Assembly: GCA_964352735.1 (NCBI GenBank)
Contig: CAYGTC010000007.1
Location: 22,379 to 86,378, forward strand
From: an uncultured Alcanivoracaceae bacterium
GTDB lineage: Bacteria > Pseudomonadota > Gammaproteobacteria > Xanthomonadales > Marinicellaceae
Direction: 5' to 3'
Length of the DNA stretch: 64,000 nucleotides
The number at the start of each line of letters is the position of its first letter. Position 1 is the stretch's first letter. This document shows positions 140 to 16,753 of this stretch, in pieces. The notes beneath the pieces were generated by a model. That model was not told the origin of the DNA. It ran no database searches and was given only the letters and a program-made list of their open reading frames with translations. The position numbers were made by a program, and so were the translations under genes.

Positions 140-378
140 TTTTATACCTTATTTAGTTTGCGCATGCGATTTTATACCCATCATATTAACCAAACAATAG
201 GCTAATAGTCACTGAACATTGAAAATATTATTTTTTATGTTAATCACATGCAATGGGTCAATCTATTAACAACATCAACATACGCATTAATGTACTATTA
301 AGTACTTAATAATTTAAAATAAATATTTATTAACACAATTCATCATGCGCAGCTTTTTCGCACGATAATAAATTAAAT

Positions 379-537
379 GAGACCTCTGCATAAGTCTGGG
401 TCTTTGGAAAAAAGAATTGAAAAGTTCAAGTTCAAGGCAGGAAACGCTATGAATAGCTGGCTATTGATGAGTTTTCTAACGCAGAAATTGAGCTTTTCAA
501 ACTTTTTTACATGATTCACGACTTATGTAGAGGTCTC
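379..537. repeat. 159-bp imperfect palindromic intergenic element (MITE/ERIC-like)
   Basis: The termini GAGACCTCTGCATAAGTC (379-396) and GACTTATGTAGAGGTCTC (520-537) are reverse complements with one G/A (G-U compatible) mismatch. The arms stay similar inward for about 60 nt. The symmetry centre is AATAGC-TG-GCTATT (452-465). The right arm recurs at 17795-17855. Confidence 0.75.
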
Positions 538-843
538 TAAATTGTTATTACTGACTATAGACAATATTAAGTGCGATTGTAACAGTTGCGTTAAAAAGAC
601 AATTACATTAATATATTTTTACATTTTTGTACATTTTATTTGCAATAATCATCGCCATCAACTAAATTAACAAGCGCGACAATTTGGTATAGTTACCACT
701 ACCGATGCCATAGGTATTGTTCAAAAAGTCAATTACCGATGTGCGGGGCTGTCGTAATACTAGTCAAACTGACAACAATTGCGTCTATTACAAAGTGCAT
801 TTTTTATGCCGATAATGATTTAAAGTGCAACCCCACTGTACGG

Positions 844-880
844 AAAACCAAGTTCAAGTAATTTGAACTTGGTTTTTTTA
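844..880. terminator. bidirectional rho-independent terminator hairpin
   Basis: A 14-bp stem (AAAACCAAGTTCAA 844-857 with TTGAACTTGGTTTT 863-876) has loop GTAAT. An A-run and a T-run flank it. It abuts the stop codon (878-880) of the minus-strand LysM/FecR gene. Confidence 0.7.
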
Positions 881-2224
881 TTGAGCCATTATTTTATAAG
901 TGTATTGGGAAATATTATCAAGATGATCAACAGCTTTGACGACAAAAGTTTTTGCACCTGAAGAGAGTCTGACAGGTGCGTCATGCCAATCTTGCCACAA
1001 ACCATTATCCCACCGATAGTGAACGCTATTAACTCCTGACTGCCGATCATAACTGAGAATATTAAATATTGTATTGGGCGAAACAACCACAACCCCATCA
1101 ACAGTTTTTTTTGTACCCAAGACGTCCAAAGCAACCAGTGGACCAGCTTCATCTGCTGAAGCATCTGCAATCACTAATGATTGTGCTTGAGACCTAAACC
1201 CAACAATATCATTTTTATCTATTCCGGCTACTCTCCAATAGAATTGACCAGAACGATTAAGATCAGCGATTTGCCAGATATTATTGGTCACTTTTTTCTG
1301 CAGAACGACCTGATTACAATCAATATCAATACAAATTTCCACCAAATAACTGTCGGCCTTATTGATTCCTTTCCACAATAATTTTGGATTAGAATAATTG
1401 AACACATCATCCAGTTTAGACAACAGTGGCGCTTTTAATAATCTTGTTGGTTTCGGCGGCGCCTGTCCTTTCTTAACCTTCATACCCATGCCTTCTGCAA
1501 TGGCCACTTGTTTGCCAGCAGATTCTACTTGAGAGTCACCTTTATAAACCGAAATCACTGAATTCCCATCTTCTAAAACACCTGTTCTCAGCGCAGTTTT
1601 TATGCCTTTTTGTGTTGAAGGCTGTAATGTTGTTGACCCTGAAATAATGGAAATTTCAGATTTTGCTACATCAAGATTATCCCAACTTAATTCAGCATCA
1701 CCTTTGATAATTTCTATAGTTGCTGTATCTGTCCCGCGCAAAGTCGTCTCTCTTGATTGCAAAAATACTTGAGAAAATTCCAAAATTTTAAATTGTGATG
1801 CATTATTTAACTTTAATAAAACCGACGATTTATCAAAAGTTCTTACACCTTCTTTTTGAATCAGCTGATCCCCTTTTGATGCTTGCAACCAATCACCAGT
1901 GTTCTTTTTTCTTTGCACTTTATTAACAACTTCAAGCATGGTTGCTTTTTGCGCAGGTATTTCTCGTTGTTTGATAATGATCAACTCTTCACCTATGGTC
2001 AAAACATGGGGGTCTTGAATATGGGGATTGAGTTTCCAGTTTTCTTTCCACAATATATCGGTTCCTAAATAGCTTCTGGTAATTGAATGTAAGGTCTCAC
2101 CTGATTTAACGGTATGCGTGATTTTGGTATCAATAACCTGAGCATAGACAAACATATATGGGTTTAACATGACAATCAGCACAATCAATAACAACTGATA
2201 TTTTGTTTTATTATTTTCCATCAT
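878..2224 (-). CDS. secreted LysM + FecR-like domain protein with C-terminal Ig-like module
   Basis: 448-aa ORF with an N-terminal signal/anchor (LLLIVLIVMLNPYMFVYAQ) and a LysM-like block (HTVKSGETLHSITRSYLGTDILWKENWKLNP...LTIGEELII). The central region resembles FecR sensor domains (IEIIKGDAELSW...VISVYKGDSQVESAGKQVAIAEGMGMKVKKGQAPPKP). The tail has an AVDHLDN Ig-like motif. It overlaps the upstream gene by 14 nt. Confidence 0.6.
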   Translation of the reverse strand: MMENNKTKYQLLLIVLIVMLNPYMFVYAQVIDTKITHTVKSGETLHSITRSYLGTDILWKENWKLNPHIQDPHVLTIGEELIIIKQREIPAQKATMLEVVNKVQRKKNTGDWLQASKGDQLIQKEGVRTFDKSSVLLKLNNASQFKILEFSQVFLQSRETTLRGTDTATIEIIKGDAELSWDNLDVAKSEISIISGSTTLQPSTQKGIKTALRTGVLEDGNSVISVYKGDSQVESAGKQVAIAEGMGMKVKKGQAPPKPTRLLKAPLLSKLDDVFNYSNPKLLWKGINKADSYLVEICIDIDCNQVVLQKKVTNNIWQIADLNRSGQFYWRVAGIDKNDIVGFRSQAQSLVIADASADEAGPLVALDVLGTKKTVDGVVVVSPNTIFNILSYDRQSGVNSVHYRWDNGLWQDWHDAPVRLSSGAKTFVVKAVDHLDNISQYTYKIMAQ

Positions 2225-3293
2225 TTTTTGCTCTGAATTTTAATTTTGTTTTCACTTTATTTCCAAATTGATCTTCTGCTATGACTTTAATGAAATTGCG
2301 TCCTCTTTTAAAAAAAGTGAAATTTTGCGGTAAAGGCTCCCACTGTTTTCGAACACTGAAATATTTGGCATATTTTAGTGATGTGTCATCTTCCACTGTA
2401 AGAAATATGTCTTGGTTGGTATTAACAATATACTTATGTCTTTTGGTGTCTAACGTTTGACCATCAATTTTGATTATAATGCTTGGTTTTTTATCATCAA
2501 CATTCCAAGCTATCGTTTCAGTGCTGCTATTACCAAGCTTATCCTCAGCCACCAATACACTGTTATTTTTGACTTTCATCTCAACTGAGTTACCATTAAT
2601 TTTATCGCCATTTAAGGTAAGTGAAGTCACTCCTACATCATCGATTGCTTCAACTCTTATCTGAGCTTTTGAACCAGCCAACCACTTTCCATTCTGCTTT
2701 ACAGCAGGCCCCAGCAACTCCCAATTGAATTGTGGCCCTTGAAAGTCAGCAATTAACCTTTCTTGTTTGATGTTTTCATTGCCAAAATAATCACTCGCTT
2801 TTACCGTAACAAGAGACGAATCTTTGGAAAATTCAACGCCCTGCTCATTATCTACGGCTTCACCATCAATCTGCACTGAAACATTACCTGAATCATCAAC
2901 AGCAACCCATTTCATCCTACTTTTAGGGCCAACAATTGTTTTATCACCCTTGTTAAATGTATTTGACCAAGTCAAATCTATGTCAGGCCCTATATCATCA
3001 ATCAATAAAATATTATCATTCGATTTAAGTTCTTTTGCCCCTTGCACTTGGATATCATGAACAACAATCCTATCCTGAGCATCTTTTATTAACAATTGAT
3101 ATTGACCAGCAGCCAAATCATTCAAACCTTCATCAATCGATTTAAAAACTCCACCATTGATGGCCCAAGTATTTGAATCTACCAACTGCAGCTGATTAAC
3201 AATATCTTTGGCCGATGAGAAGGTTAACGATTGCGCATTAATGTGAGTCGTTGCGATTATCAGACATGACAGTAGTATTTTCACTGCTTGCAT
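2211..3293 (-). CDS. secreted protein with tandem Ig-like repeats
   Basis: 360-aa ORF with a strong SD (TAAGGAG, 7 nt upstream of ATG 3293) and signal peptide MQAVKILLSCLIIATTHINAQS. Beta-sandwich-type motifs recur: VAVDDSGN, ASDYFGN, AIDDVGV, AEDKLGN, AEDQFGN. Confidence 0.5.
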   Translation of the reverse strand: MQAVKILLSCLIIATTHINAQSLTFSSAKDIVNQLQLVDSNTWAINGGVFKSIDEGLNDLAAGQYQLLIKDAQDRIVVHDIQVQGAKELKSNDNILLIDDIGPDIDLTWSNTFNKGDKTIVGPKSRMKWVAVDDSGNVSVQIDGEAVDNEQGVEFSKDSSLVTVKASDYFGNENIKQERLIADFQGPQFNWELLGPAVKQNGKWLAGSKAQIRVEAIDDVGVTSLTLNGDKINGNSVEMKVKNNSVLVAEDKLGNSSTETIAWNVDDKKPSIIIKIDGQTLDTKRHKYIVNTNQDIFLTVEDDTSLKYAKYFSVRKQWEPLPQNFTFFKRGRNFIKVIAEDQFGNKVKTKLKFRAKNDGK

Positions 3294-5190
3294 AAATAAG
3301 CTCCTTAGATGATTGAATGCCTGCTAACTTGGCATTCCAATGTGGTTTTTGTGGCGCTGCATCGGAAATCATGCGTGCTACTTCAGCTGCTGTTTCTGGT
3401 CGATTATCAGGGTTTTTATCCAACAATTTCAGAATTACTGTTATTAACTTTTCGGATTGTTTTGTAATCATTTTCTCTGGAAATAAAACTTTTTTAATAA
3501 GTGTATTACTTCTGGTTGTGTGCACTTTCTTAGCCAGGAAAGGGTTTTTACCTAACAAACATGTTGCAATCAATGCCCCCAAAGCAAATAAATCACTTTT
3601 CACGCTGACTGTTCCATGCTCATATATTTCAGGGGCAATGTATCCACTTGTTCCAGTCACATGATCTTTGGTTAAAGTTTGCAATAATGCTGTTGTGCCA
3701 AAATCAGTGATTTTAATGTCGCCATTAATGCCCAATAAAATATTTTCAGGTTTGATATCTCTATGCACAAAACCAAGTTCATGTGCACTATGCAGACCTT
3801 TAGATATGGCAATGGCGATGACTATGGTGTGTTCAATTGTTAATCTTTTATTTCTGTGTACAAAAGCATGCAAGGTTTCTCCATCAATGTATTCCATGGC
3901 AATAAAAGCAGTGGTATTAGTCGAGACCACATCAAATATGGAAACGACATTACGATGAGATATTCTGGCAGCAGTAATCGCCTCCTGAACCAACGTTTCA
4001 CTCATATTCCTGCGACTACCAAATGCACTCTTTATGGGCAATGTTTTTAAAGCCACATGTCTTTTTAACCTAGGGTCCCAACCCAAAAATACCGATCCCA
4101 TACCGCCCATACCAATTTGACTGATCACTTGATAACGATCAACAAAAATCTGACTCAAGGCATTTCTATTATCTATGTGTTTACTGATGGTTTCAAAACT
4201 TTTTTCTAAAGCTGTTACCTCACTGCCTTGCCATTGGCCTTGTTGAGTTTGTTCACCCAAGAGACTTTGGTAAGCATTAATGACTCTTCTTAATGGTTTA
4301 ACCCAAGAAATATAAGCCCAAAGTATTAAAAATATCATGGCCATCAGGATAAAAATAAAAACTTTACGAGCAGTGTCAACCATTTTACTGGCTGCTGCTT
4401 CGGCAAATTTTACAGGTTGTCTAGATATGATTGACCACTCTACGTTCTTAATTGAGGCTATGGCAAATATGCTTTTTTGTCCTTCTAGTTCATAACGATT
4501 GGCAGAATCAATTATATTCCCAGATCTGAGTTGTTGAGATAAAGACTTTGGAAGAGCGAACGCACCTTGTCCTGAGTGCTTTATTAAAAGCCCATCATTT
4601 TCAATCAATGACAAACTTGCAAAGTCCCCCAATAAACTTGGATTAAGCACATCATCAATCTTTAGGGATAATAAAGCAGAGAGATACACTTGTGGTCTGG
4701 CAGTTTTTACATGAATAACCAACTGCCTCTGATTTGTTAGAGAGACCAAAAAAATGGGTTGATCAATCTTTTTTGTGATCAGATCCTGGGCTACTTGAGA
4801 ATCTACTTGGTTTTTTTTAACCAACTGAATAATATTATTTTGAGTACTGATTTCTCGCGTTACCAACCCAATCGCATTGATATTATTTTGCGCAATTAAC
4901 GTTGACTTTAATAATTCTGCAGCACCTTCGGAATCTGGTTGCAAATAAATCGTCGGATTATTGCCCAAGGCTTCAAGTGTTGTGATGTATTGATCAAGCA
5001 AGTTCTCCATTCTATCTGCCGTAGCCCTAGAAACGATCATATGAGATTTTTGCGATTGATTAATGATCGCTTCTTGTGAATTGTTAATTTGGTACCATGA
5101 TAACAAAAAAGGTAAAATTCCCATTGCCAATAAAGTTAAAAATACCCAAATAATGATAGACCTATTTTTAAATTGCACTCTACACCCCAA
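3238..5190 (-). CDS. transmembrane Hanks-type Ser/Thr protein kinase with N-terminal extracytoplasmic Cache-like sensor
   Basis: TM1 (IIIWVFLTLLAMGILPFLL) is followed by a ~240-aa predicted periplasmic region and TM2 (VFIFILMAMIFLILWAYISWV). All kinase motifs are present: GMGGMGSV, VALK, HRDIKPENILL, DFG, GTSGYIAPE, DNRP. There is no in-frame ATG at the 5' end, so the start is TTG 5190 or GTG 5178. Confidence 0.85.
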   Translation of the reverse strand: MGCRVQFKNRSIIIWVFLTLLAMGILPFLLSWYQINNSQEAIINQSQKSHMIVSRATADRMENLLDQYITTLEALGNNPTIYLQPDSEGAAELLKSTLIAQNNINAIGLVTREISTQNNIIQLVKKNQVDSQVAQDLITKKIDQPIFLVSLTNQRQLVIHVKTARPQVYLSALLSLKIDDVLNPSLLGDFASLSLIENDGLLIKHSGQGAFALPKSLSQQLRSGNIIDSANRYELEGQKSIFAIASIKNVEWSIISRQPVKFAEAAASKMVDTARKVFIFILMAMIFLILWAYISWVKPLRRVINAYQSLLGEQTQQGQWQGSEVTALEKSFETISKHIDNRNALSQIFVDRYQVISQIGMGGMGSVFLGWDPRLKRHVALKTLPIKSAFGSRRNMSETLVQEAITAARISHRNVVSIFDVVSTNTTAFIAMEYIDGETLHAFVHRNKRLTIEHTIVIAIAISKGLHSAHELGFVHRDIKPENILLGINGDIKITDFGTTALLQTLTKDHVTGTSGYIAPEIYEHGTVSVKSDLFALGALIATCLLGKNPFLAKKVHTTRSNTLIKKVLFPEKMITKQSEKLITVILKLLDKNPDNRPETAAEVARMISDAAPQKPHWNAKLAGIQSSKELIYASSENTTVMSDNRNDSH

Positions 5191-5492
5191 AATTCAATGT
5201 CGACATTATAAAGAATTTTACTCAACTGAGGTATCAAATTAACGTTTCTTTACAATTTATTCAATATATTTTTTGTGACGCATATCACAAATAAAAATAA
5301 ATAAATATAAGTTATTGTAATGCAATCTATTTATTGTATTTTGATTTTTACACTTAATTTAAATATCCCTAATAATCTAACCCTTGGTCATCCGTGAATT
5401 TATTTGGTGGCTATCAATCGCATTCTGAGGAAGATCAAACTCATCAATCTCATGCAGTGCTAAACTTTCCAACGAGCACAGCGATCAAACTG

Positions 5493-5532
5493 AAAGTAAC
5501 AAAGTAACAAAGTAACAAAGTAACAAAGTAAC
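5493..5532. repeat. perfect tandem octamer repeat (AAAGTAAC) x5
   Basis: Five uninterrupted copies were read directly. They lie in the 419-bp gap between the nlpD stop and the kinase operon start. Confidence 0.95.
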
Positions 5533-5609
5533 ATTTTATATAAAAACTCTTAAAATAGCACCCGTAATTGAAAAGAGAGTAAAAACCTGAAATAGCTCAA
5601 TAAATAAAG

Positions 5610-6551
5610 CTATTTTTTAGGCAAATATTTCAAAGGGTTAACGGGTTGGCCATTTTTTCTGATTTCAAAATGCAGTAACGATTTACCATCATTGCCCTTA
5701 CCAGATTTAGCAATATGTTGGCCTTGTTTAACTGTTTGTCCTTCTTTGACCAATCTTTGAGAATTATGTGCATAGGCACTGAGAAGATTATCGGTGTGTT
5801 TGATAATGATCAACTCTCCATAACCTCTTAGACCGTCACCACTGTAGACCACCGTTCCATTATTGGTAGCCACTACAGTTGTGCCTTGACTGGCACTAAT
5901 ATCGATGCCTTTCCTAGACACATCTGCAGCAGAAAAGGTACTGATAACACGTCCATTAAGAGGCCACACCCATTTTGAACTGGCAGGTTTGACTGGCTGA
6001 GTTACTGGTTTTTTTACAATTGGCCGTGATTGAGGCTTATTCACAGGTTTAGTCACTGGTTTTTTTGCCACTGGCTTTGTAACATTAGGCTTTTTTGAGA
6101 CTTGAATAGGTTTCTTTACCGCAGGCTTTTTATTGTAGTTTTGCTTGGGTATTTTTGCTGGAGGTGTTGTTTTTCTAACAACAGTACCTATGGGTTTCGG
6201 TTTGATGCGAACAGGATGTGATCGGGCTTGCGCTACTTGGTTCCTTTGACGGCCTTTTGATTTTTTTAATCGCAGTTTTTGCCCAGGATAAATGTTATAG
6301 GGTGACTTTATTCGATTAATGCTGGCCAATTTTTTATAATCAATGCTGTATTTAAAACCCAAAGCATAAAGCGTATCACCTTTTCTAACAACCACCTCAT
6401 CAGGCACAAATCGTTTGGTCATTCTCTTTTGATGAACCCGATTGTATTTTCGAGGCTTGACTTCCTTAACAGGTGCAGGTGAATGAGGAGAGCAAGACGT
6501 CATAAGAACAAAGCTCAATAATATCAAACTGTGTAAAACAGCAGACCTCAT
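5610..6551 (-). CDS. nlpD: murein hydrolase activator NlpD (LysM + degenerate M23 peptidase lipoprotein)
   Basis: Lipoprotein-type signal (LMTSC), a LysM block (VVRKGDTLYALGFKYSIDYKKLASINRI) and a K/P-rich linker. The M23 domain has degenerate metal ligands (KGIDI, LLHFEI), as in E. coli NlpD. It follows surE-pcm. Confidence 0.85.
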   Translation of the reverse strand: MRSAVLHSLILLSFVLMTSCSPHSPAPVKEVKPRKYNRVHQKRMTKRFVPDEVVVRKGDTLYALGFKYSIDYKKLASINRIKSPYNIYPGQKLRLKKSKGRQRNQVAQARSHPVRIKPKPIGTVVRKTTPPAKIPKQNYNKKPAVKKPIQVSKKPNVTKPVAKKPVTKPVNKPQSRPIVKKPVTQPVKPASSKWVWPLNGRVISTFSAADVSRKGIDISASQGTTVVATNNGTVVYSGDGLRGYGELIIIKHTDNLLSAYAHNSQRLVKEGQTVKQGQHIAKSGKGNDGKSLLHFEIRKNGQPVNPLKYLPKK

Positions 6552-7207
6552 CCGCGTATCACACCCTCTAAAAATGGTACGAACATGACCGGTTCCAATT
6601 TATCGGTATAATAACCATTTTCAGTTTTAGTAATTTTAAACAAATTCTGTTGACGATTATCACCCACTGGCAAAATCATTACACCACCAACACACAATTG
6701 ATTCATCAGTGATTCAGGGATTTTTTCAGGTGCAGCAGTAGCGATGATAACATCATATGGCGCCTCATTTGGCCACCCTTCAAATCCATCACCTGTTTTT
6801 GTTCTGACGTTCAAATAACCCAATTTTATGAATCGCCTTCTTGCCATTCTGGTCAAATCATCAATTCTTTCAACACTGAAAACTTGTGGCACCAATTGGC
6901 CCAATATGGCCGCTTGGTAACCTGAGCCAGTACCCACTTCCAGAATCTTTTTTGGGTTTTGTTCAACAACAATTTCTGTCATTTTAGCAACCACCCATGG
7001 TTGTGAAATCGTTTGGCCATAATTGATCGGTAAAGCCGTATCTTCATATGCTCTATGTGACATAGCCTCATCCATAAACAAATGTCTTGGTACTTTGGCC
7101 ATTGCAGCCAGCACTTTTTCATTGTTGATGCCTTTTTCTCGCAACCTTACAACCATACGATCACGAGTACGTTGTGAAGTCATGCCTATACCAATTGCTG
7201 CATTCAT
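6548..7207 (-). CDS. pcm: protein-L-isoaspartate O-methyltransferase
   Basis: 219 aa with SAM-binding motif [12 protein letters not shown] and the QTISQP motif. It has 4-nt overlaps with surE and nlpD. Confidence 0.95.
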
Positions 7208-7959
7208 TGAATCAAATCACTCCACTTTCTCAATGCTTCTAATGCACTGTGTTTGGTCATATCAACTTTCATGGGTGTGATCGACACGTAACCATTTTTA
7301 ACCGCATGAAAATCAGTGCCTTCACCGGCATCTGCCTCAGCACCTGCAGCGCCAATCCAATAAATTTTACGCCCCCTTGGGTCTGTATCTTTGATGGCAC
7401 TTTCCGCTTTATGCCTATTGCCTAGTCTGGTAATTTTTACGCCTTTAACCTGATCGATAGGAACATTCGGAAAATTGATATTTAAGATACTGTCATCAGG
7501 CAGCGCATTGGTTTTAATGTGCTTGATGATTTTCTTGATATAATGCTGAGCCGTATCAAAATATCGCGGCTGACCATGCTTTGTCGCCAATGATAATGCT
7601 AAAGCAGGCAAACCCAAATATCGCCCTTCTATGGCAGCAGCCACAGTACCAGAATACAACACATCATCACCAAGATTCGCAGCATTGTTGATTCCGGAAA
7701 CAACCATATCAGGCTCTTCTGTCATAACACCAGTTAAAGCCATATGCACACAATCTGTGGGCGTCCCATTAACTGAATACCAACCATCAGACACTTGGTG
7801 TATACGAATAGGCCTATCTAAAGTCAAGGAATTACTGGCACCCGATCGATCTCGGTTCGGCGCAAAAACCGTAACTTGACCCATGTCATTCAATGTCTCA
7901 GATAACAACTTAATGCCAGTTGCAAAAACGCCATCATCATTACTGATTAAAAAGTGCAT
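7204..7959 (-). CDS. surE: 5'/3'-nucleotidase SurE
   Basis: 251 aa with the N-terminal ISNDDG motif and [22 protein letters not shown]. It sits in the surE-pcm-nlpD order. Confidence 0.95.
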
Positions 7960-8311: not shown

Positions 8312-10549
8312 ATGTCGAAAATTCTTAATTTTGAAATCATGCCCATGGGCGAATACGCTGAAAAGGCTTATTTGGATTATTCCATGTATGTTGTTTTGGA
8401 CCGCGCCTTACCTTTTGTAGGTGATGGACTTAAGCCAGTACAAAGACGCATCGTTTATGCGATGAGCGAACTGGGCTTATCCGCCAAATCAAAACACAAG
8501 AAATCTGCACGCACCATTGGAGATGTGATTGGTAAATATCATCCACATGGAGATTCTGCCAGTTATGAAGCCATGGTATTGATGGCGCAGCCTTTTTCTT
8601 ATCGTTATCCTTTGGTAGATGGTCAAGGTAACTTCGGTTCACCAGATGACCCTAAGTCATTTGCAGCCATGCGTTACACCGAATCGAGACTGACGCCCTA
8701 TTCTAAAAGCCTGTTACAGGAAGTCCCTTTGGGCACCATTGATTGGCAACCCAATTTTGATGGTACTTTACAAGAACCCGTTTTTTTACCTGCGCGCTTA
8801 CCGAATATTTTACTCAATGGCGGTTCAGGTATCGCCGTCGGTATGGCCACAGATATACCTCCACATAATTTACGTGAGGTTTCAGCTGCATTGTTTCATT
8901 TATTAGATCATCCCGATGCCAGCATAGAAGACTTGTGTCAGCATATACAAGGCCCTGATTATCCAACATATGCCGAAATCATTACACCCAGAAAAGACAT
9001 TATTGACATTTATACTTCTGGCAAAGGCAGCATTAGAATGCGCTGCGTACATGAACGAGAGGATAAAAACATTGTCATTACAGCGCTGCCACACCAAGCC
9101 AGTCCTGCAAAAATATTAGAACAAATTGCCACGCAGATGCGCACCAAAAAATTACCGATGGTTGAAGATTTAAGGGACGAATCAGATCATGAAAATCCTT
9201 TTAGGCTGGTGATCATAACACGCTCTAATCGCATTGACTATGATGGACTAATGAGTCATTTGTATGCAACAACCGACTTGGAAAAGTCTTTTAGAGTCAA
9301 TTTAAATTTAATAGGCTTGGATAAGCGACCTCAAGTTAAAAATCTCAAGCTCATTTTACAAGAGTGGCTAAGCTTTAGAACTGAAACCGTAAGGCGCAGA
9401 TTGCAATATAGATTAGATAAGGTTGATGCCCGTTTGCATATTTTGCAAGGCTTGTTGATTGCTTATCTTGATTTAGATGAAGTGATAAGAATCATACGCG
9501 AAGAAGAACATCCTAAAGAAACCTTAATTGCCACTTTTAAATTATCTGAAATTCAAGCCGAAGCCATTTTAGAAACAAAGCTTCGTAACCTTGCTCGCCT
9601 CGAAGAAATGAAAATCAAAACTGAGCAAATGGAATTGATGGCAGAAAAAGATGAAATCACCGGCATATTGATGTCACGTGCCAAGTTAAAAAAACTGATC
9701 AAAACTGAAATCATGGAAGACACTGAACTGTATGGTGATGCCAGAAGAAGTATGATTGTAGATCGTGCAGCGGCTAAAGTATTTGATGAAACCAGTCTAG
9801 TACCCAATGAGCCAAACACCATCATCATGTCAAAAGCCGGTTGGGTTCGCGCAGCAAAAGGCCATGATATTGACACCCAAAAATTAAGCTTTAAATCCGG
9901 TGATGAATATGCCCACCATGCGAGAGGACGCAGCAATCTTAATGCAGTATTCTTGACCAATAACGGTCGCAGCTTCTCTCTACTTTCGCACACCCTACCC
10001 TCCGCAAGAGGGCAAGGTGAAGCGTTAACCACGAAGTTTAAATTACCTGAGGACAGTCAATTTGTCGCGACAGTCTGCGAACAAGCCGATACCATTTTAC
10101 TAATGGCAAGCTCTGCTGGTTATGGGTTCATTACAGAAACTGAAAACCTTTATTCCAAAGTTAAAGCAGGCAAACAATGTATTTCTGTACCCAAAGGTTT
10201 TACCACCATACCACCCAAAGTTATCAACAATATAGATGAGGACTTTATCATTTGTGTAACCAGTGCCGGATATCTTTTGGCCTTTCCCGTGCGAGAATTA
10301 CCTCATTTAACCAAAGGTAAAGGCAATAAAATGATCAACATACCACCAAAGTTGCTCAAAGCTGGCGATGAAAAAATGATTGATATGATTGTGGTCAGTG
10401 AAAACCAATCCTTTTTAGTGTGGGCAGGTGCCAGATACATCAGAATAAAATGGAAAGATCTACAAAACTTTTTGGGATATCGTGCCAAACGTGGTAGCCT
10501 ATTACCTAAAGGGTTTAGAAATGTTGATCGACTGGAAAAAGAAACTTAA
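8312..10549 (+). CDS. parC: DNA topoisomerase IV subunit A
   Basis: 745 aa, near colinear with E. coli ParC as I recall it ([32 protein letters not shown]..., [10 protein letters not shown] catalytic Tyr region). It is shorter than GyrA. Confidence 0.93.
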
Positions 10550-11363
10550 GTTCATATTGATACCGATATCAGGTCAATGTCTGGCATTGCCTGATATCCC
10601 CAGCCTACAAAATTGTCCTGACAACATTTTTCATGCCAGTTTTCAAAATGATTCCCAACCCAGCAATGGTGCTGGTGGCGCAACAGGCAGCTTGACCAGG
10701 ATCATCAATTTTCCTGGAGGATCCAGTCTCTATTTTTTATACGTGCCTTCAACTTATGATCCTACAATACCCATCCCATTATTGATCACCTATCATGGTA
10801 CAGCAGGTGCTGGCAATGCCAGCCAACAAGCACAAGCGATCAGAAATTTTTGGCTACAAACCGCAGAGGACAATAACTTTATTGTATTGGCACAAACCGG
10901 CAGCAGTGCCAATGGCTCATGGACTGTTGGACTGGACTTTCCATTGATTAGGGATGAAATTCTGGATGAAGTTTTTGCCTTTTATAATATTGAGACAACA
11001 AGGACTTATGGTCATGGATTTTCAGCAGGCGGCCATGTCATGCACACCATGATGCTGTTTTATAATAACAATCGATTTGCCGCCTACACAGTCAGTGCTG
11101 GTGCTTTAGAACGAGATGCGATTCAGGAAGACCCCAATGTCCCAGCCAACAACAGTGTTGTACCCGTTTATATTTCGCACGGGCAGTTTGACAATATTGT
11201 GCCCATATCATTGGCCAATGACGATTATGCAAAATTTATACAAGCAGGTTGGCAAGACGGCAGAACGATATGGATAGATACTTTTAATGGAGGTCATACC
11301 ATTGAAGCAACTTTTCCTCAAAAAAGTTGGGATCAATTGTGTCGATTTACCACAGTTGACTAA
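10521..11363 (+). CDS. alpha/beta-fold esterase, PHB-depolymerase/LpqC-like family
   Basis: [27 protein letters not shown] followed by [10 protein letters not shown], with nucleophile elbow GHGFSAGG. The start is taken at ATG 10521. ATG 10482 would extend the overlap with parC further. Confidence 0.6.
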
Positions 11364-11435: not shown

Positions 11436-12059
11436 TTATTCAACAGAAAAATTCATCAATTCCACTGGCAATAAACCCAGCGTTTTGACACCCAAATCAT
11501 CAAACGTGTCTTGTGGGAATGAAGACCATTCAATTGAAGGATCATAGGGATCATTGACATTGGTATCGCCGCCACAGGTTAATGCATTTCTTCTCAACGT
11601 TTCATTTTGCGTGCCTACACCACCAGCATTCCACTCTGAGCCTGGGTCACCCAGTAGATCTCCTATACTGTCTATTGTAAGCGCACCATTGCGCAATTCA
11701 ATGGTATCATCTCCATTAAAAGTCATGACAGTTGACGAGGTTAGCTGATCTGCCAAAGCAAGGAGAGAGGCATTTGCTGAATTGTTGGCAACAACAAATA
11801 CATCGTTATCTGCTATCGAGCCACTGAGTGAAAGAGAAGACGCACCACCAGTACCGCCATTAGTGTTTCTGATCAATGTGTAACTGGTCAAATCAACAAG
11901 TGCACCTGTTCCATTGTAAATTTCTATGGCTTTATTGTTACCACTGCCCTCAACATACTCAGAAATGATTAAATCCTCCTGTAAAAGAGGACACCCACCT
12001 GCTGCGACAGTAAATGATGAGATCAATGCAAAACCAGTAACCAATATTTTGTGTGTCAT
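11436..12059 (-). CDS. secreted lamin-tail-domain (LTD) protein, paralogue 1
   Basis: 207 aa with a signal peptide (LVTGFALISSFTVAA). The LTD signature matches the N-terminus of ExeM/NucH-type extracellular nucleases (LIISEYVEGSGNNKAIEIYNGTGALVDLTSY...DVFVVAN...FNGDDTIEL...DSIGDLLGDPGSEW...NETLRR). It ends in LPVELMNFSVE. Confidence 0.75.
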   Translation of the reverse strand: MTHKILVTGFALISSFTVAAGGCPLLQEDLIISEYVEGSGNNKAIEIYNGTGALVDLTSYTLIRNTNGGTGGASSLSLSGSIADNDVFVVANNSANASLLALADQLTSSTVMTFNGDDTIELRNGALTIDSIGDLLGDPGSEWNAGGVGTQNETLRRNALTCGGDTNVNDPYDPSIEWSSFPQDTFDDLGVKTLGLLPVELMNFSVE

Positions 12060-12233: not shown

Positions 12234-12887
12234 TTATTCAACAGAAAAATTTTCTAACTCAACGGGCAATTCTGTACCACCAGCACCACCATCAGCACCA
12301 GGTGTAGCAACCATTGTCGCATTAGCATTGCTACCGGAAATTATAGTCGTTTCCCAAAAACCTGTTGGAGAAGGGTCATTTGGTTTTGGAGATGGCGCAT
12401 TTATTCCAGTAGGAGTTGTTACTCCCCAAGAACCATCATTCGGTAATTGACTGGCTACTCTATGCGCCACTACATTTGAAGCAAAAGTATCAGTACCACC
12501 AATGCGATCAACTCCAAAACTATCAACAACAGATGTACCATTAAAAAGGTCATATTTGTCATTGCCATTATGGTTAATCGAGGTACTGACTTGATCCACA
12601 GTGCCAGCGCCGAATAACGTGTTAACATCTGTCGGACCAACCACATAAAAACCACCAGCAGGTATGACTCCGGTCAAAGTCACGGTTGTCGGAGTCGTTC
12701 CCCCATTACTGTAACGACGCAATTGCCACCCATCAACACTAAAATCAACAGCAGCACCACTGTTATGTAATTCAACAAACTTTGCAATACCGCCATTGGA
12801 CTCAAAAACTTCAGATATAAGTACATCCGCAGACACCGACGCCGACAATAAAACCGACAAACTGGCCAAAATTATTTTTTTATTCAT
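12234..12887 (-). CDS. secreted lamin-tail-domain (LTD) protein, paralogue 2
   Basis: 217 aa with signal peptide (ASLSVLLSASVSA/DV) and a divergent LTD (VLISEVFESNGGIAKFVELHNSGAAVDFSVDGWQL...GFYVV...NGNDKYDLF...DSFG). It ends in LPVELENFSVE. Confidence 0.7.
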   Translation of the reverse strand: MNKKIILASLSVLLSASVSADVLISEVFESNGGIAKFVELHNSGAAVDFSVDGWQLRRYSNGGTTPTTVTLTGVIPAGGFYVVGPTDVNTLFGAGTVDQVSTSINHNGNDKYDLFNGTSVVDSFGVDRIGGTDTFASNVVAHRVASQLPNDGSWGVTTPTGINAPSPKPNDPSPTGFWETTIISGSNANATMVATPGADGGAGGTELPVELENFSVE

Positions 12888-13228: not shown

Positions 13229-16200
13229 ATGAATAAAAAATTCATCACTTTATGCATTATAAGATTCAAGCCTATCGTTTTAATTTTACTGTTTTACTGC
13301 CTCACAGCACATGCATGGTGGGACAGTGACTGGAATCATCGTGTCAACATAACAGTTGACAACACATCAGCCACCGCTGTAACCAGCTACGAAGTTAAAC
13401 TCACCATTGATGCCAGCAATGCGCCAAACTTCGATTGGAGCAACAACGGAAATGATATTCGCTTTATTGACAGCGATGACATGACAATGTTAGCTCACTT
13501 TATTGAGTCATACGATGGCATTGCAGAAATCGCCACAGTTTGGGTGAACGTACCTAATATAGCTGCAATGGACTCTGCCAATTTATTTTTTTATTATGAC
13601 AACAGCACAGCTACTAATACGACTGATGCCAGTGCAACATTCTCCCAAAGCGGCCTCAAATATCATACACGCAACAGCACATTAGACCCAGACAGTTTGG
13701 CCACAGCTCAGTCTACTTTTGATGGCATAGCCGATGGCACAACAGGATTTGGTTGCAGCAATGTCACTGCATTTACCTCTTTAGAAAACAGCGAACTTTA
13801 TGGCAGCAATAACGCCATGGCTTTGACCTCTGAGGTATTCTTTAACATGCCATCTGGCGGCACATTACAACTCAGATTAGGAGGCGATTTTGGTGATGGA
13901 GGTGGATTATATGTAGACAATACCGTTATAGAAGAGTTATGGGGACCTGTTGGCACAGGTGATGACATGTGGTGGGCCAACACTTGGGCCAGCTTTACAA
14001 CTTCACAAGAAATACTTTATGGATCAATTGTTCTATCTGCGGGTTACCATGTCCTCAGACACATTGGTTTTGAGCAATGTTGTGATGGTGATGCTACATT
14101 GGAATACCGCATCGGCACCACTGGCTCATGGCTGGCGTTCAATACCAGCAATTTATCATTGGTCAGCCCTCAATGCCCTGTTAGCACTGCTGCAAGTTTT
14201 GCCGCCGAAGAAACATTCGATGCAATCATCGGCTATGTTTCATCACAATTTCACGATCAACATGTGCTGATAGAATGGCAATCGAACTCTGAAAGTTTTA
14301 ATGTGGGATTTAATATATGGATACAAGATCACACCGGCAAATGGCTTAAATCTAACGCAGAACTGATCCCATCAGAAAAAATTAACAGCCTCACACCTTT
14401 ACAATACCATTACCGTGTTGACAATATGTCTATTGAACATTTTCAAATCAGTTCAATCAATATCCATGGAAAAGAGGAATTTTATCGCACTTATGAAGTA
14501 AAAAAATCATATGGAAGGAAAACCACAACACAATCCATTGATTGGTCGATAGTCAATCAACAAAATAACACTAAGATTAAGCAAAGAAATCTGCTCAAAA
14601 ATTCACAGCTCACCCAGATCGATCAACAGGATCTTGTCGCCAATATTAAAACCAGCAAAACCGGCATAACTAGGGTTTATTTTGACCAGTTGATGGCCGC
14701 TGGCTTGGATATCACTCAGTTTGATGACAATAATTTAGCCGTTAGCTTTAAAGGTCGTGCAATCGCGCGTAATGTACATATTGATCATAATTCTGAAAAC
14801 AGTTACGTGGAATTCTTCGCCCAAACTCTGAATAATATTGATGCCTTATACCTCTCACAAGCCATTTACCAAATTTCAAATCAGCCAGATTTAGTAAAAC
14901 ACAGCAAAAACAACCGAATTCATAGACCTCTCACATTAACACAATCATATAACACAACAGATACCCGAGATAATAATGTTGTGTATAATTTTGCCAGCAG
15001 CAGCTCAGATCCTTGGTTTGAAAAATTATTAGCCAATTTTGGAAATGGGGCCACTCATCGCATTGAATTGACAAAACCAATTGATTTAGCGCTAAATGAT
15101 AACATCAACATAACGTTAAAAATGATGGGATTAACAGATTATCCTGGTAATGCTGCGATTAATCCAGACCATCACCTTAAAGTCATTCTCAATAATAACA
15201 CAGTCATATTTGATGGATTTGAAGATGGCATAGTTGATTGGCACATCAGCATACCTCTTACCAGCCAACAATTAGAGGATGGCGTCAATACATTAGATTT
15301 AACCTTGGTCAGTGATACTGGTTTTAGTGCTGATATGGTTTATTTTGACAAACTTGAGATCGATTATACAAAACCTCTGGCTAAAAATAATCAGCCGCTA
15401 TTATTCTCTACAGACCAAAAAAATACAGAATTTGAATTATCAGGCTTCATAGACAAAAATTTTATCGCCTATGCGCACAGCGCTTCAGGAGATTTGTTTG
15501 AACTGTACATTGATGACGAACCCTCAAATATCGATCGAATATTTATGGATCAATTTGAAATTCAGCTCACTCAACACCATTATGTTGATGCAATCAATGC
15601 CACTGGCAGTCACCAGTATTGGTTTTCTGATGCCGATACAGCACTAGCGGTTGATGAAATTCATATCACCAGCAAAGAAAAAATAACATTAGATAATAGC
15701 CATTACTTAATCATATCTGACACCAATTTTATCAATCACGATCTTGAACGCTTTAAAAATGCGAAGCAACAACAAGGACTTAAAACGTCCATTATCAGTT
15801 GGCAAGATATCATTGAAAAAAACGGAAATGGCTACGCTACCCCAGAAACTTTGACACGCTTTTTGAGTTCAACTTACCAGCATTTTCGCTTTACACATGT
15901 CTTGTTGGTTGGTGCTCAAACATATGATTACAATAATTACCTCGGGTTAAACACCGTCAATTTTATTCCAACGCATTATATGAAAACCAATGGGAACTTC
16001 CATTACACGCCGACTGATTTTCCATATACGGACATCAATAAGGATGGCTATCCAAATTTTGCACTGGGTCGCTGGCCAGTAAGAACAACACAAGAACTGA
16101 ACACCATTGTCAACAAAACCCTCACATGGCAACAACAACACCCATCAAATACCATCAATTCATTATTAATTGCTGAACAACAAGATCAAAACCTCATCAA

Positions 16201-16753
16201 TTTTGCCGAACAAGCTGACAGTGTTGCAAATACTTTACAGCTTGACGCTGATTTAACCCAAAAAGTATATGTGGATGATTACCTCGCTTCTTCCTCGGAT
16301 GATCCGATTGCTGAGGCAAAAAACGACTTAATCAACCACATCAATGGTGGCGTTGACTTGGTTATATTTGATGGCCATGGTAGCCCCACCACCTGGGCAT
16401 ATCAAAACTTATTCAATACACAGGATGTTGTGCAATTAACTAACATAAATCATCCATTTTTATTATCTCCATTGAGTTGTTATACCACATATTATGAAAA
16501 CCCCAGCACCAATACTTTAGCCCATCAAATGTTATTTTCAGGACAGAATGCTGCAGTAGCCATTCATGGCGCCATGGTATTAAGCCAATACTTATCCAAT
16601 CAAAACATGGCCACAACCACTTTGAAAGATATGATTGAGCGACAAAGCACCTTGGGAGAAGCCATAATGCGTGCTAAAATTGACTTATATCATGCCATTG
16701 ACGATAATATCCTCAACTGGAGTCTACTTGGTGATCCTGCAATTACGCTGTAA
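13229..16753 (+). CDS. large secreted multidomain protein: DUF2341 + PA14-like + beta-sandwich + C-terminal peptidase C25 (gingipain/PorU-like) domain
   Basis: 1174 aa with a signal peptide ending AHA. DUF2341 signature WWDSDWNHRVNITVDN...IRFID...VWVNVP...FFYYDN. PA14-like block LQLRLGGDFGDGGGLYVDNTVIEELWG. The C25 block runs from YLIISDTNF (about 15704) to LLGDPAITL, with GHG (His codon 16376-16378) and LSC (Cys codon 16478-16480). Confidence 0.75.
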   Translation: MNKKFITLCIIRFKPIVLILLFYCLTAHAWWDSDWNHRVNITVDNTSATAVTSYEVKLTIDASNAPNFDWSNNGNDIRFIDSDDMTMLAHFIESYDGIAEIATVWVNVPNIAAMDSANLFFYYDNSTATNTTDASATFSQSGLKYHTRNSTLDPDSLATAQSTFDGIADGTTGFGCSNVTAFTSLENSELYGSNNAMALTSEVFFNMPSGGTLQLRLGGDFGDGGGLYVDNTVIEELWGPVGTGDDMWWANTWASFTTSQEILYGSIVLSAGYHVLRHIGFEQCCDGDATLEYRIGTTGSWLAFNTSNLSLVSPQCPVSTAASFAAEETFDAIIGYVSSQFHDQHVLIEWQSNSESFNVGFNIWIQDHTGKWLKSNAELIPSEKINSLTPLQYHYRVDNMSIEHFQISSINIHGKEEFYRTYEVKKSYGRKTTTQSIDWSIVNQQNNTKIKQRNLLKNSQLTQIDQQDLVANIKTSKTGITRVYFDQLMAAGLDITQFDDNNLAVSFKGRAIARNVHIDHNSENSYVEFFAQTLNNIDALYLSQAIYQISNQPDLVKHSKNNRIHRPLTLTQSYNTTDTRDNNVVYNFASSSSDPWFEKLLANFGNGATHRIELTKPIDLALNDNINITLKMMGLTDYPGNAAINPDHHLKVILNNNTVIFDGFEDGIVDWHISIPLTSQQLEDGVNTLDLTLVSDTGFSADMVYFDKLEIDYTKPLAKNNQPLLFSTDQKNTEFELSGFIDKNFIAYAHSASGDLFELYIDDEPSNIDRIFMDQFEIQLTQHHYVDAINATGSHQYWFSDADTALAVDEIHITSKEKITLDNSHYLIISDTNFINHDLERFKNAKQQQGLKTSIISWQDIIEKNGNGYATPETLTRFLSSTYQHFRFTHVLLVGAQTYDYNNYLGLNTVNFIPTHYMKTNGNFHYTPTDFPYTDINKDGYPNFALGRWPVRTTQELNTIVNKTLTWQQQHPSNTINSLLIAEQQDQNLINFAEQADSVANTLQLDADLTQKVYVDDYLASSSDDPIAEAKNDLINHINGGVDLVIFDGHGSPTTWAYQNLFNTQDVVQLTNINHPFLLSPLSCYTTYYENPSTNTLAHQMLFSGQNAAVAIHGAMVLSQYLSNQNMATTTLKDMIERQSTLGEAIMRAKIDLYHAIDDNILNWSLLGDPAITL

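What the first reader, a model, noticed from the sequence alone, without database searches (positions are those of the whole stretch)
878..5190. Three-gene operon: Cache-sensor transmembrane Hanks kinase + secreted Ig-repeat protein + LysM/FecR protein
The kinase has inverted topology relative to classic bacterial PknB-type kinases. The sensor is N-terminal and extracytoplasmic, between two TM segments, and the fully intact kinase domain is C-terminal (about 3360-4140), which is the layout of a histidine kinase. It is co-transcribed, with overlapping reading frames, with two exported proteins. One of them combines LysM (peptidoglycan binding) with a FecR-like sensor domain. FecR-domain proteins are known partners of transmembrane signalling proteins. 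No PP2C phosphatase, FHA protein or T6SS gene is nearby, although these are the usual gammaproteobacterial partners of Hanks kinases. This could be an envelope- or peptidoglycan-sensing phospho-signalling module.
Basis: partly seen in the sequence, partly recalled or inferred. Interest (0 to 1): 0.7.

Follow-up and report, generated by a model that had tools for sequence, protein, structure and literature searches.

The report
Cache-sensor Ser/Thr kinase with two exported partners
A marine gammaproteobacterium carries a tightly packed three-gene operon for a membrane Ser/Thr kinase with an outward-facing double-Cache sensor and two exported partner proteins, one of which binds the cell wall; the trio is always found together, so it is probably one uncharacterised envelope-signalling device built from known parts.

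Summary
Three overlapping minus-strand genes at 5190-878 encode:
- a TM1-dCache-TM2-HAMP-Hanks kinase;
- a signal-peptide protein (g2) with three Ig-like repeats;
- a signal-peptide protein (g3) with LysM, FecR-like, FN3-like and Ig-like domains.

A 14-bp hairpin follows the last stop codon.

The modelled periplasmic region (pLDDT 86.8) matches only dCache ligand-binding domains in the PDB. The kinase-g2-g3 order holds in all 23 related loci wherever the contig extends, with unrelated flanks. Six kinases only 25-31% identical still have a g2-like or g3-like gene directly downstream, and in one of them g3 and g2 are fused.

The "inverted topology" is not new, because dCache_1-Pkinase is a published architecture. 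Exported FecR or LysM-FecR proteins next to membrane receptors are also published, but with CHASE2 sensors.

In this family the usual distal Cache pocket is the least conserved part, and the amino-acid motif is absent. The LysM and FecR-like region of g3 is the most conserved periplasmic part. I therefore favour g3 and g2 as wall-anchored co-sensors of the kinase.

The input signal, any physical contact and the kinase substrates are all untested. I rate this a new variant of a known kind, of moderate interest.

The parts
5191..5609 (-). AT-rich intergenic region between nlpD and the kinase gene. It is the presumed promoter region and holds a perfect TATAAT at 5210-5205 and an SD-like GGGGTG just upstream of the GTG at 5178.
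   Evidence: Sequence read. The promoter scan found no more sites than in shuffled sequence, so the promoter is not established.
3238..5190 (-). Gene 1: the TM1-dCache-TM2-HAMP-Hanks Ser/Thr kinase. It is 650 aa from the TTG at 5190; the likely true start is the GTG at 5178, giving 646 aa.
5086..5166 (-). TM1 (residues 9-35).
   Evidence: Hydropathy 2.67. It lies within the long N-terminal helix 11-76 of the model. The LPF.LSWYQ motif is conserved.
4384..5085 (-). Periplasmic double-Cache domain (residues 36-269). The distal module is about 104-181 and the proximal module about 192-259.
   Evidence: Model pLDDT is 86.8. Foldseek PDB hits are all dCache domains, E 1e-8 to 1e-6. Pfam dCache_1 hits 27 of 32 members. 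A PDB profile search hits Mlp24.
4291..4383 (-). TM2 (residues 270-300).
   Evidence: Hydropathy 2.68. It lies within helix 260-310 of the model.
4156..4290 (-). HAMP-like linker (residues 301-345), with conserved P299, R301, G312, E324, L328 and F332.
   Evidence: Pfam HAMP hits 5 of 32 members. NCBIfam SiaA similarity covers 229-341. The model shows helix-loop-helix at lower pLDDT, 53-71.
3391..4134 (-). Hanks-type kinase catalytic domain (residues 353-600). It is an RD kinase with a Thr-rich activation loop.
   Evidence: Pfam Pkinase E 8.5e-51.
2211..3293 (-). Gene 2 (g2): an exported protein with a signal peptide (residues 1-21), an N-terminal domain, and three Ig-like repeats at residues 99-180, 182-261 and 264-354.
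   Evidence: The repeats match the g3 C-terminal domain profile with i-E 6e-6, 1e-5 and 3e-8. There is a sub-threshold NCBIfam OmpL47-type hit. PDB profile hits to the SiiE, Bap and SRAP Ig-like domains are weak.
878..2224 (-). Gene 3 (g3): an exported protein with a signal peptide (about residues 1-29), LysM (37-83; nt 1976-2116), a FecR-like beta-rich region (about 95-260; nt 1445-1942), an FN3-like domain (about 276-355; nt 1160-1399) and an Ig-like domain (356-447; nt 884-1159).
   Evidence: LysM scores 26 bits against a cut-off of 20.9. FecR hits 11 of 30 family members. Model pLDDT is 88.7. Foldseek returns tandem FN3/Ig matches. The LysM is closest to TsaP.
844..876 (-). A perfect 14-bp hairpin that starts 1 nt after the g3 stop codon, flanked by an A-run and a U-run. 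It is the likely intrinsic terminator of the operon.
   Evidence: -17.4 kcal/mol, z -4.58, and 0 of 200 shuffles fold as well.

Best explanation
This is a self-contained three-gene envelope-signalling operon.

Gene 1 is an inner-membrane receptor kinase. It has a periplasmic double-Cache domain between two membrane helices, a HAMP-like linker and an intact cytoplasmic Hanks Ser/Thr kinase.

Genes 2 and 3 are exported through Sec signal peptides. g3 is anchored to peptidoglycan by a TsaP-type LysM domain. It extends a FecR-like, an FN3-like and an Ig-like domain as a rod. g2 is a chain of three copies of the same Ig-like domain.

My inference is that g3, with g2, acts as the primary periplasmic sensor or co-receptor. 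It would contact the kinase's Cache domain, probably at the conserved membrane-proximal module and stalk. A change in the wall or envelope, or a ligand captured by g3, would then pass through TM2 and HAMP to switch the kinase, which phosphorylates cytoplasmic substrates that are still unknown.

Shown here: the gene structure, the folds, the topology logic and the obligate genetic linkage.

Inferred only: physical contact, the nature of the input signal, the direction of regulation and the output.
For: Operon structure:
- The three ORFs overlap by 56 and 14 nt, and a terminator hairpin follows the last one.

Sensor fold:
- The model is confident and matches only dCache domains.
- The kinase motifs are intact.

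Linkage:
- The kinase-g2-g3 order is invariant in 23 loci wherever the contig extends. These come from Marinicella, 'Alcanivoracaceae' and Lysobacterales MAGs.
- The flanks are unrelated housekeeping genes, and no fourth gene is conserved.
- The sensor region retrieves 156 clusters. Of the 131 that are 400-900 aa long, 124 carry the Hanks motifs.
- All six distant members whose contigs could be read (25-31% identity) have a g2-like or g3-like gene starting within or just after the kinase stop codon.
- In L025, g3 and g2 are fused into one 606-aa protein.

Where the constraint lies:
- The distal Cache module (residues 104-181) is the least conserved part of the receptor, with a mean top-residue frequency of 0.31.
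- The amino-acid-binding motif is absent in all 82 members examined.
- The N-terminal stalk helix, the inter-module linker and the proximal module carry the near-invariant residues Q45, H50, R60, P85, G188, A191, W252, S256, Q258 and P259.
- In g3 the LysM and FecR-like regions are the most conserved periplasmic parts of the whole module (0.76 and 0.67). They hold 78 positions at 90% or more.

Precedent for exported FecR proteins as receptor partners:
- LysM-FecR (COG4254) sits next to a CHASE2 histidine kinase in Burkholderia and in P. aeruginosa PA4035 (PMC5192318).
- A FecR-domain protein sits next to a CHASE2 adenylate cyclase in Campylobacterota (PMC9239204).
Against: - No direct evidence of contact exists. 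AlphaFold-Multimer could not be run.
- Correlations of pairwise identity among the sensor, g2 and g3 (0.81-0.91) are no higher than those with the kinase domain (0.78-0.90), so they show only shared phylogeny.
- dCache domains normally bind small molecules directly. A lineage-variable pocket is equally compatible with diversifying ligand specificity.
- The FecR assignment is weak for the window protein itself: no hit even at E 10, and hhalign against one FecR protein gave a probability below 1%.
- No substrate, phosphatase or regulator is linked to the operon, so the output is unknown.
- The signal peptides were judged by eye, not by a predictor.
Confidence: 0.55

Rival explanations
1. The kinase is an ordinary ligand-binding receptor. 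Its dCache domain binds a diffusible small molecule directly. g2 and g3 are merely co-expressed envelope proteins, for example wall-associated or adhesive proteins made together with the sensor, or part of its output. They are not part of the input.
For: The dCache fold is confirmed. dCache_1 domains of Ser/Thr kinases have been shown to bind amino acids directly (PMC8915833). Synteny alone cannot separate a co-sensor from a co-expressed cargo.
Against: The distal pocket is the least conserved part of the receptor, and the amino-acid motif is absent in all 82 members. The linkage survives down to 25% identity and includes a g3-g2 fusion with 4-nt start/stop overlaps, which is tighter than usual for a regulator and its cargo. 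Exported FecR proteins recur next to receptors of other output classes (PMC5192318, PMC9239204).
Confidence: 0.25
2. g2 and g3 are structural parts of an envelope or surface assembly, such as a secretin- or pilus-associated ring like TsaP, or an Ig-repeat adhesin. The kinase monitors or controls assembly of that structure rather than sensing the wall itself.
For: The LysM of g3 is most similar to TsaP, the type IV pilus secretin-associated protein (3jc8 at E 7.6e-9 and 6ve2 at E 5.8e-8). The Ig-like repeats resemble adhesin domains of SiiE, Bap and SRAP, and OmpL47-type surface-protein domains.
Against: The similarity to TsaP is confined to the 47-residue LysM. No pilus, secretin or secretion gene is conserved next to the module in 23 loci. 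The adhesin hits are weak (E 3e-4 to 1e-3). g2 and g3 are small (360 and 448 aa) compared with repeat adhesins.
Confidence: 0.12
3. The module is an anti-phage defence system of the Ser/Thr-kinase type (PD-T4-6 or MADS-like) that senses infection at the envelope.
For: PADLOC PD-T4-6 and mad6 models hit the protein strongly, E down to 5e-65. Distribution among species is patchy.
Against: The hits cover only the generic kinase domain, residues about 323-646 at most. g2 and g3 hit nothing in PADLOC. The flanks are housekeeping genes such as surE-pcm-nlpD, parC, BipA, AdoHcyase and MTHFR, not defence islands. The described PD-T4-6 kinases, as I recall, lack a periplasmic sensor.
Confidence: 0.03

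Closest known systems
dCache_1-containing bacterial Ser/Thr kinases (Pfam architecture dCache_1-[HAMP]-Pkinase), e.g. the Enhygromyxa salina kinase WP_106093935.1 (PMC4822843, PMC8915833)
   Same: The topology is the same: an N-terminal extracytoplasmic double-Cache domain between two membrane helices, with a C-terminal cytoplasmic Hanks kinase. The fold is the same.
   Different: The amino-acid-binding motif is absent in all 82 members, and the distal pocket is poorly conserved. The window protein is below Pfam's dCache_1 cut-off. This subfamily is always followed by g2-like or g3-like genes, which has not been described for Cache kinases.
Operons pairing a LysM-FecR protein (COG4254; PA4035-like) with a CHASE2 histidine kinase, as in the Burkholderia 'BiofilmReg' operon, and FecR-protein plus CHASE2 adenylate-cyclase clusters (PMC5192318, PMC9239204)
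   Same: In both cases a signal-peptide protein with an N-terminal LysM followed by a FecR-type domain is encoded directly next to a membrane receptor that has a periplasmic sensor domain.
   Different: Here the receptor's sensor is dCache, not CHASE2. The output is a Hanks kinase, not a histidine kinase with response regulator or a cyclase. g3 carries extra FN3-like and Ig-like domains. A second Ig-repeat protein (g2) is part of the unit. No response regulator is linked.
PASTA-Hanks kinases (PknB, StkP, PrkC)
   Same: Both are membrane Hanks kinases that plausibly report on the state of peptidoglycan.
   Different: The topology is opposite: in PASTA kinases the kinase is N-terminal, there is one TM helix, and the PASTA repeats are C-terminal. 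Wall fragments bind the kinase's own PASTA repeats. Here any wall binding is delegated to the LysM on a separate protein. The NCBIfam PknB_PASTA model matches only the kinase domain (237 bits against a cut-off of 450).
PpkA with the periplasmic accessory proteins TagR/TagQ or RtkS, in type VI secretion (PMC10482370, PMC6082577)
   Same: Both are Gram-negative membrane Hanks kinases whose activity depends on separately encoded periplasmic accessory proteins.
   Different: PpkA has an N-terminal kinase and sits in T6SS clusters with a PP2C phosphatase and an FHA substrate. None of these is conserved near this module.
FecA-FecR-FecI cell-surface signalling
   Same: Both use a FecR-type periplasmic domain to relay an envelope event to the cytoplasm.
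   Different: g3 is soluble or wall-bound, with no transmembrane anti-sigma part. No ECF sigma factor or TonB-dependent transducer is conserved in the unit. The relay would end in Ser/Thr phosphorylation.

Membership tests
Hanks-type (eukaryote-like) Ser/Thr protein kinase, Pfam PF00069 | The profile match is above cut-off, and the catalytic motifs are intact: G-loop, VAIK Lys, alpha-C Glu, HRD...N, DFG and APE. | tested here: met
   173.3 bits against a cut-off of 31.7. Motifs are GMGGMGSV360, K382, E403, HRDIKPEN476, DFG496 and APE519, invariant across the family.
dCache_1 (PF02743) extracytoplasmic sensor | The Pfam profile match is at or above the gathering score. | tested here: not met
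   The window protein scores 21.5-24.3 bits against a cut-off of 45, and only residues 40-81 match. At family level, 27 of 32 members hit at E<=0.01, with a best of 2.9e-11.
dCache_1 (PF02743) extracytoplasmic sensor | The double-Cache fold: a long N-terminal helix, two alpha/beta modules and a C-terminal helix running into the membrane, all located between two TM helices. | tested here: met
   Model pLDDT is 86.8, with H11-76, strands 104-175 and 192-259, and H260-310. The top solved-structure Foldseek hits are all dCache domains, with E values from 2.4e-8 to 1.6e-6; ranks 1-2 are integrative models of the B. subtilis chemoreceptors McpB, McpC and YvaQ.
dCache_1AA amino-acid sensors | The conserved amino-acid-binding motif in the distal module (Y...R.W[Y/F]...Y...D). 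| tested here: not met
   None of 82 family members has R.W[YFW] or Y..R.W in the distal module.
HAMP domain (PF00672) | A profile match and a helix-connector-helix of about 50 residues right after TM2. | tested here: inconclusive
   There is no Pfam hit in the window protein, but 5 of 32 members hit and P0037 is annotated PF00672. The model shows two helices with a loop at 311-323, at pLDDT 53-71. The P299/E324/L328/F332 pattern is conserved.
LysM (PF01476) | The profile match is above the gathering score. | tested here: met
   g3 residues 37-83 score 26 bits against a cut-off of 20.9. All 30 family members hit. PDB profile hits are TsaP LysM domains.
FecR domain (PF04773) | The profile match is above the gathering score in the protein itself. 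| tested here: not met
   The window g3 has no hit, even for the isolated region at E<=10. At family level, 11 of 30 members hit at E<=0.01. Only P0155 is above the cut-off, at 27.4 bits against 24. hhalign against one FecR protein was not significant. The fold was not separately tested.
COG4254 LysM-FecR protein with a CHASE2 receptor | The neighbouring receptor carries a CHASE2 sensor domain. | tested here: not met
   The neighbouring receptor has a dCache fold. No CHASE2 hit was returned for the window kinase at E<=0.1 or among the five families listed for the 32 family sensor regions at E<=0.01.
PASTA kinases (NF033483 Stk1/PknB) | C-terminal extracellular PASTA repeats, and a full-length model score above cut-off. 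| tested here: not met
   237 bits against a cut-off of 450, and only the kinase region 347-643 matches model positions 3-292.
T6SS PpkA-type threonine phosphorylation pathway | Linked PP2C phosphatase, FHA-domain substrate and T6SS genes. | tested here: not met
   None is present among the ten nearest ORFs. None is conserved in the 23 loci.
PD-T4-6 / MADS kinase defence systems (PADLOC) | Full-length similarity and a defence-island context. | tested here: not met
   Only the kinase domain matches, g2 and g3 have no hits, and the flanks are housekeeping genes.

The most novel reading that the evidence does not exclude
The trio could be a previously unrecognised kind of trans-envelope relay. 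It would work like cell-surface signalling, but the read-out would be Ser/Thr phosphorylation rather than an ECF sigma factor. A rod-shaped LysM-FecR-FN3-Ig protein anchored in peptidoglycan, together with its Ig-repeat partner, would be the actual sensor. It might report wall integrity or the distance between the wall and the inner membrane. The dCache domain would be repurposed as a protein-docking adaptor instead of a small-molecule pocket.
Probability: 0.3. Interest if true: 0.65.

Novelty: new variant of a known kind. Interest (0 to 1): 0.45.

Why it matters
What Gram-negative Hanks kinases sense is largely unknown outside type VI secretion, and no signal has been assigned to the stand-alone exported LysM-FecR proteins in the two papers read here. 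This module joins the two. An obligate LysM-FecR/Ig partner pair for a Cache-type Ser/Thr kinase offers a tractable case for two questions. The first is how accessory periplasmic proteins feed Cache receptors. The second is whether peptidoglycan state is signalled by Ser/Thr phosphorylation in diderm bacteria, as PASTA kinases do in monoderms. A cultured host exists: Marinicella litoralis KMM 3900, kinase WP_133566518.1. The finding is still built from known domains. It appears confined to a modest group of mostly marine, uncultured gammaproteobacteria and metagenomic relatives. Its function is entirely inferred.

Tried and rejected
1. Mirror-tree style co-evolution. Spearman correlations of pairwise identities among the periplasmic domain, HAMP, the kinase domain, g2 and g3 were all 0.76-0.91. 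The sensor showed no excess correlation with g2 or g3, so this reflects shared phylogeny only.

2. Metagenome scan seeded with the sensor alignment A3. I used six single look-ups of distant kinases instead.

3. Fold assignment of the FecR-like region. The whole-protein Foldseek search of g3 was swamped by tandem FN3/Ig matches. The isolated region gave nothing in the PDB by sequence or in Pfam. hhalign against one FecR protein was not significant.

4. A conserved fourth partner. All-against-all clustering of ORFs in 23 loci found only clade-specific housekeeping synteny: transporters, AdoHcyase, MTHFR, BipA and Dus.

5. Defence-system reading. PADLOC hits are generic to the kinase domain, so I rejected it.

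6. FecR-type Gly-Thr autocleavage site. G164 is invariant, but the following Thr is replaced by Val or Arg in distant members, so I did not pursue it.

7. Rfam search of the flanking non-coding DNA gave no hits.

8. The sigma-70 promoter scan was not above the shuffled background.

9. Exact look-ups of the window kinase and of P0001 found no record, so the source contig could not be retrieved.


Full report
**1. Observation**

The window carries three long ORFs head to tail on the minus strand at the stated coordinates:
- 5190..3238, 650 aa from a TTG;
- 3293..2211, 360 aa (g2);
- 2224..878, 448 aa (g3).

The first pair overlaps by 56 nt and the second by 14 nt.

Upstream on the same strand are surE, pcm and nlpD. 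They are separated from the kinase gene by a 420-bp AT-rich spacer.

Alignment with homologues and an upstream GGGGTG point to the GTG at 5178 as the real start (MQFKNRSIIIW...). The database copy, P0001, starts 22 codons downstream of the TTG, which would truncate the first membrane helix.

One nucleotide after the g3 stop codon a perfect 14-bp hairpin begins, flanked by A and U runs (nt 876-844). It folds at -17.4 kcal/mol with z = -4.6. The unit therefore looks like one transcript with its own terminator. The promoter was not established.

**2. The kinase**

Pfam Pkinase covers residues 353-600 (E 8.5e-51). Every catalytic motif is present and invariant across the family.

Two strongly hydrophobic segments, residues 9-35 and 270-300, enclose about 235 residues.

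The window protein is below Pfam's dCache_1 cut-off, but 27 of 32 family members hit it and 5 hit HAMP. A family profile finds the dCache chemoreceptor Mlp24 in the PDB.

An AlphaFold model of residues 1-345, built on a 32-sequence alignment, is confident (pLDDT 86.8, pTM 0.74). It shows the canonical layout: a long helix, a distal alpha/beta module, a proximal alpha/beta module, a long helix, then a helix-loop-helix.

The solved structures among the leading Foldseek hits in the PDB are all double-Cache ligand-binding domains. They include Mlp24, Mlp37, Tlp3, PctC, TlpQ and the HK1S-Z histidine-kinase sensors, with E from 1e-8 to 1e-6.

The histidine-kinase-like layout, including a HAMP-like linker, is real.

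**3. The two exported proteins**

g3 begins with an n-h-c signal peptide. It then has:
- a LysM domain above Pfam's cut-off, whose nearest solved relatives are the LysM domains of the type IV pilus protein TsaP;
- a beta-rich region that 11 of 30 family members match to Pfam FecR, although only one is above the gathering score and the window protein itself does not hit;
- an FN3-like domain;
- a C-terminal Ig-like domain.

The g3 model has pLDDT 88.7, and Foldseek returns tandem FN3/Ig proteins.

g2 has a signal peptide, a short N-terminal domain and three tandem copies of the same Ig-like domain that ends g3 (i-E 6e-6, 1e-5 and 3e-8). Each copy carries the D..GP.I ... D..GN signature. Hits to OmpL47-type, Big_13 and SiiE/Bap domains are weak.

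'LysM/FecR protein' and 'Ig-repeat protein' are thus right. The caveat is that FecR is a family-level call.

**4. Linkage**

A genome scan seeded with g3 returned 21 loci. They come from Marinicella litoralis, M. sediminis, and MAGs labelled Marinicella, Alcanivoracaceae, Lysobacterales, Xanthomonadaceae and Oceanospirillales. Two look-ups seeded with the kinase added two more loci.

In every locus where the contig extends, the order is kinase-g2-g3. Clustering of all ORFs shows that nothing else is shared by all loci. What is shared within clades is housekeeping.

An exhaustive HMMER search with the sensor region alone found 156 clusters. Of the 131 that are 400-900 aa long, most are 630-680 aa and 124 carry the Hanks catalytic motifs. 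This sensor is therefore essentially dedicated to this kinase.

Six distant members (25-31% identity) could be placed on contigs. All six have a g2-like or g3-like gene starting within or just after the kinase stop codon. L026 keeps the full trio, and L025 has g3 and g2 fused into one 606-aa protein.

The second refutation test, 'never linked elsewhere', clearly fails. The gene fusion is independent support for a joint function.

**5. How it probably works**

Three observations shift the likely sensing role from the Cache pocket to the partners.

a. The membrane-distal Cache module, which usually binds ligands in dCache_1, is the least conserved part of the receptor (mean top-residue frequency 0.31). 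None of 82 members has the amino-acid motif. Near-invariant residues cluster instead in the stalk helix, the inter-module linker and the membrane-proximal module.

b. The LysM and FecR-like parts of g3 are the most conserved periplasmic sequence in the module (0.76 and 0.67). They are more conserved than the kinase's own periplasmic domain, whose mean pairwise identity is 0.35 against 0.46 for g3.

c. Exported FecR or LysM-FecR proteins are recurrent neighbours of membrane receptors of other output classes (PMC5192318, PMC9239204).

I therefore favour a relay in which wall-anchored g3, with g2, docks on the Cache domain and controls the kinase through TM2 and HAMP.

Contact, signal identity, sign of regulation and substrates are all inferred. 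The main rival is direct small-molecule sensing with g2 and g3 as co-expressed envelope proteins, and it cannot be excluded. Pairwise-identity correlations were uninformative.

**6. Comparison with what is known**

The 'inverted' topology is a published architecture class. dCache_1 occurs in Ser/Thr kinases, and one such domain has been shown to bind amino acids (PMC4822843, PMC8915833).

The partner idea has precedent only with CHASE2 receptors. I found no paper combining FecR, LysM and Pkinase.

The module is not a PASTA kinase, a T6SS PpkA system, a FecIRA system or a PADLOC defence kinase. For each of these a defining feature was tested and not met.

**7. Verdict**

The trio is a genuine, conserved and uncharacterised signalling unit assembled from known parts, so I rate it a new variant of a known kind.

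Interest is moderate (0.45). It is testable in a cultured Marinicella. It could show how accessory proteins feed Cache receptors and Gram-negative Hanks kinases. Nothing here is mechanistically surprising yet.

Noticed in passing
window 5493-5533: A perfect tandem repeat, AAAGTAAC x 5.1, lies in the 420-bp AT-rich spacer between nlpD and the kinase gene. Its function is unknown. It could be a regulatory or phase-variable element upstream of the operon.
   Followed up: no
window 5610-7959 (minus strand): The operon sits immediately downstream of surE-pcm-nlpD. In many gammaproteobacteria rpoS occupies that position (my own knowledge). No ORF of 80 aa or more lies between nlpD and the kinase gene here. 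Adjacency to nlpD is not conserved in the other loci.
   Followed up: partly
window 140-843: About 700 bp of AT-rich DNA (31-34% GC) downstream of the terminator has no ORF above 48 aa and no Rfam match.
   Followed up: partly
window 11436-12059 and 12234-12887 (minus); 13229-16753 (plus): Two adjacent small Lamin-Tail-Domain proteins lie next to a 1174-aa protein with DUF2341 and a C-terminal Peptidase_C25 (gingipain-type) domain. This is an unusual trio of exported-looking proteins.
   Followed up: no
P0159-P0307 (sensor-family kinases): Many distant family members are non-RD kinases, with HHD or HQD instead of HRD in the catalytic loop, e.g. HHDVKPAN in 18 and HHDVKPGN in 13. The window protein is an RD kinase. 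This suggests different activation-loop requirements within one sensor family.
   Followed up: no
L025 3119-4372 (minus); L030 385-6836 (minus): Signalling genes lie divergently upstream of two distant family kinases. In L025 it is a sigma-54 activator with an unassigned N-terminal region of about 107 residues. In L030 it is a PAS histidine kinase, a response regulator, an RR-GGDEF and an RR-PP2C cluster. These are possible output partners but are not conserved.
   Followed up: partly
L001 1-2948; L002 2441-6570: ECF sigma-factor genes lie a few kb upstream of the module in two loci. In L001 the ECF sigma is followed by an 877-aa TPR-Pkinase protein. In L002 it is followed by a FecR anti-sigma and an 826-aa protein. 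This arrangement is not seen in the other loci.
   Followed up: no
window 10482-11363 (plus): A 293-aa ORF overlapping the end of parC has no Pfam match at E<=1e-5.
   Followed up: no
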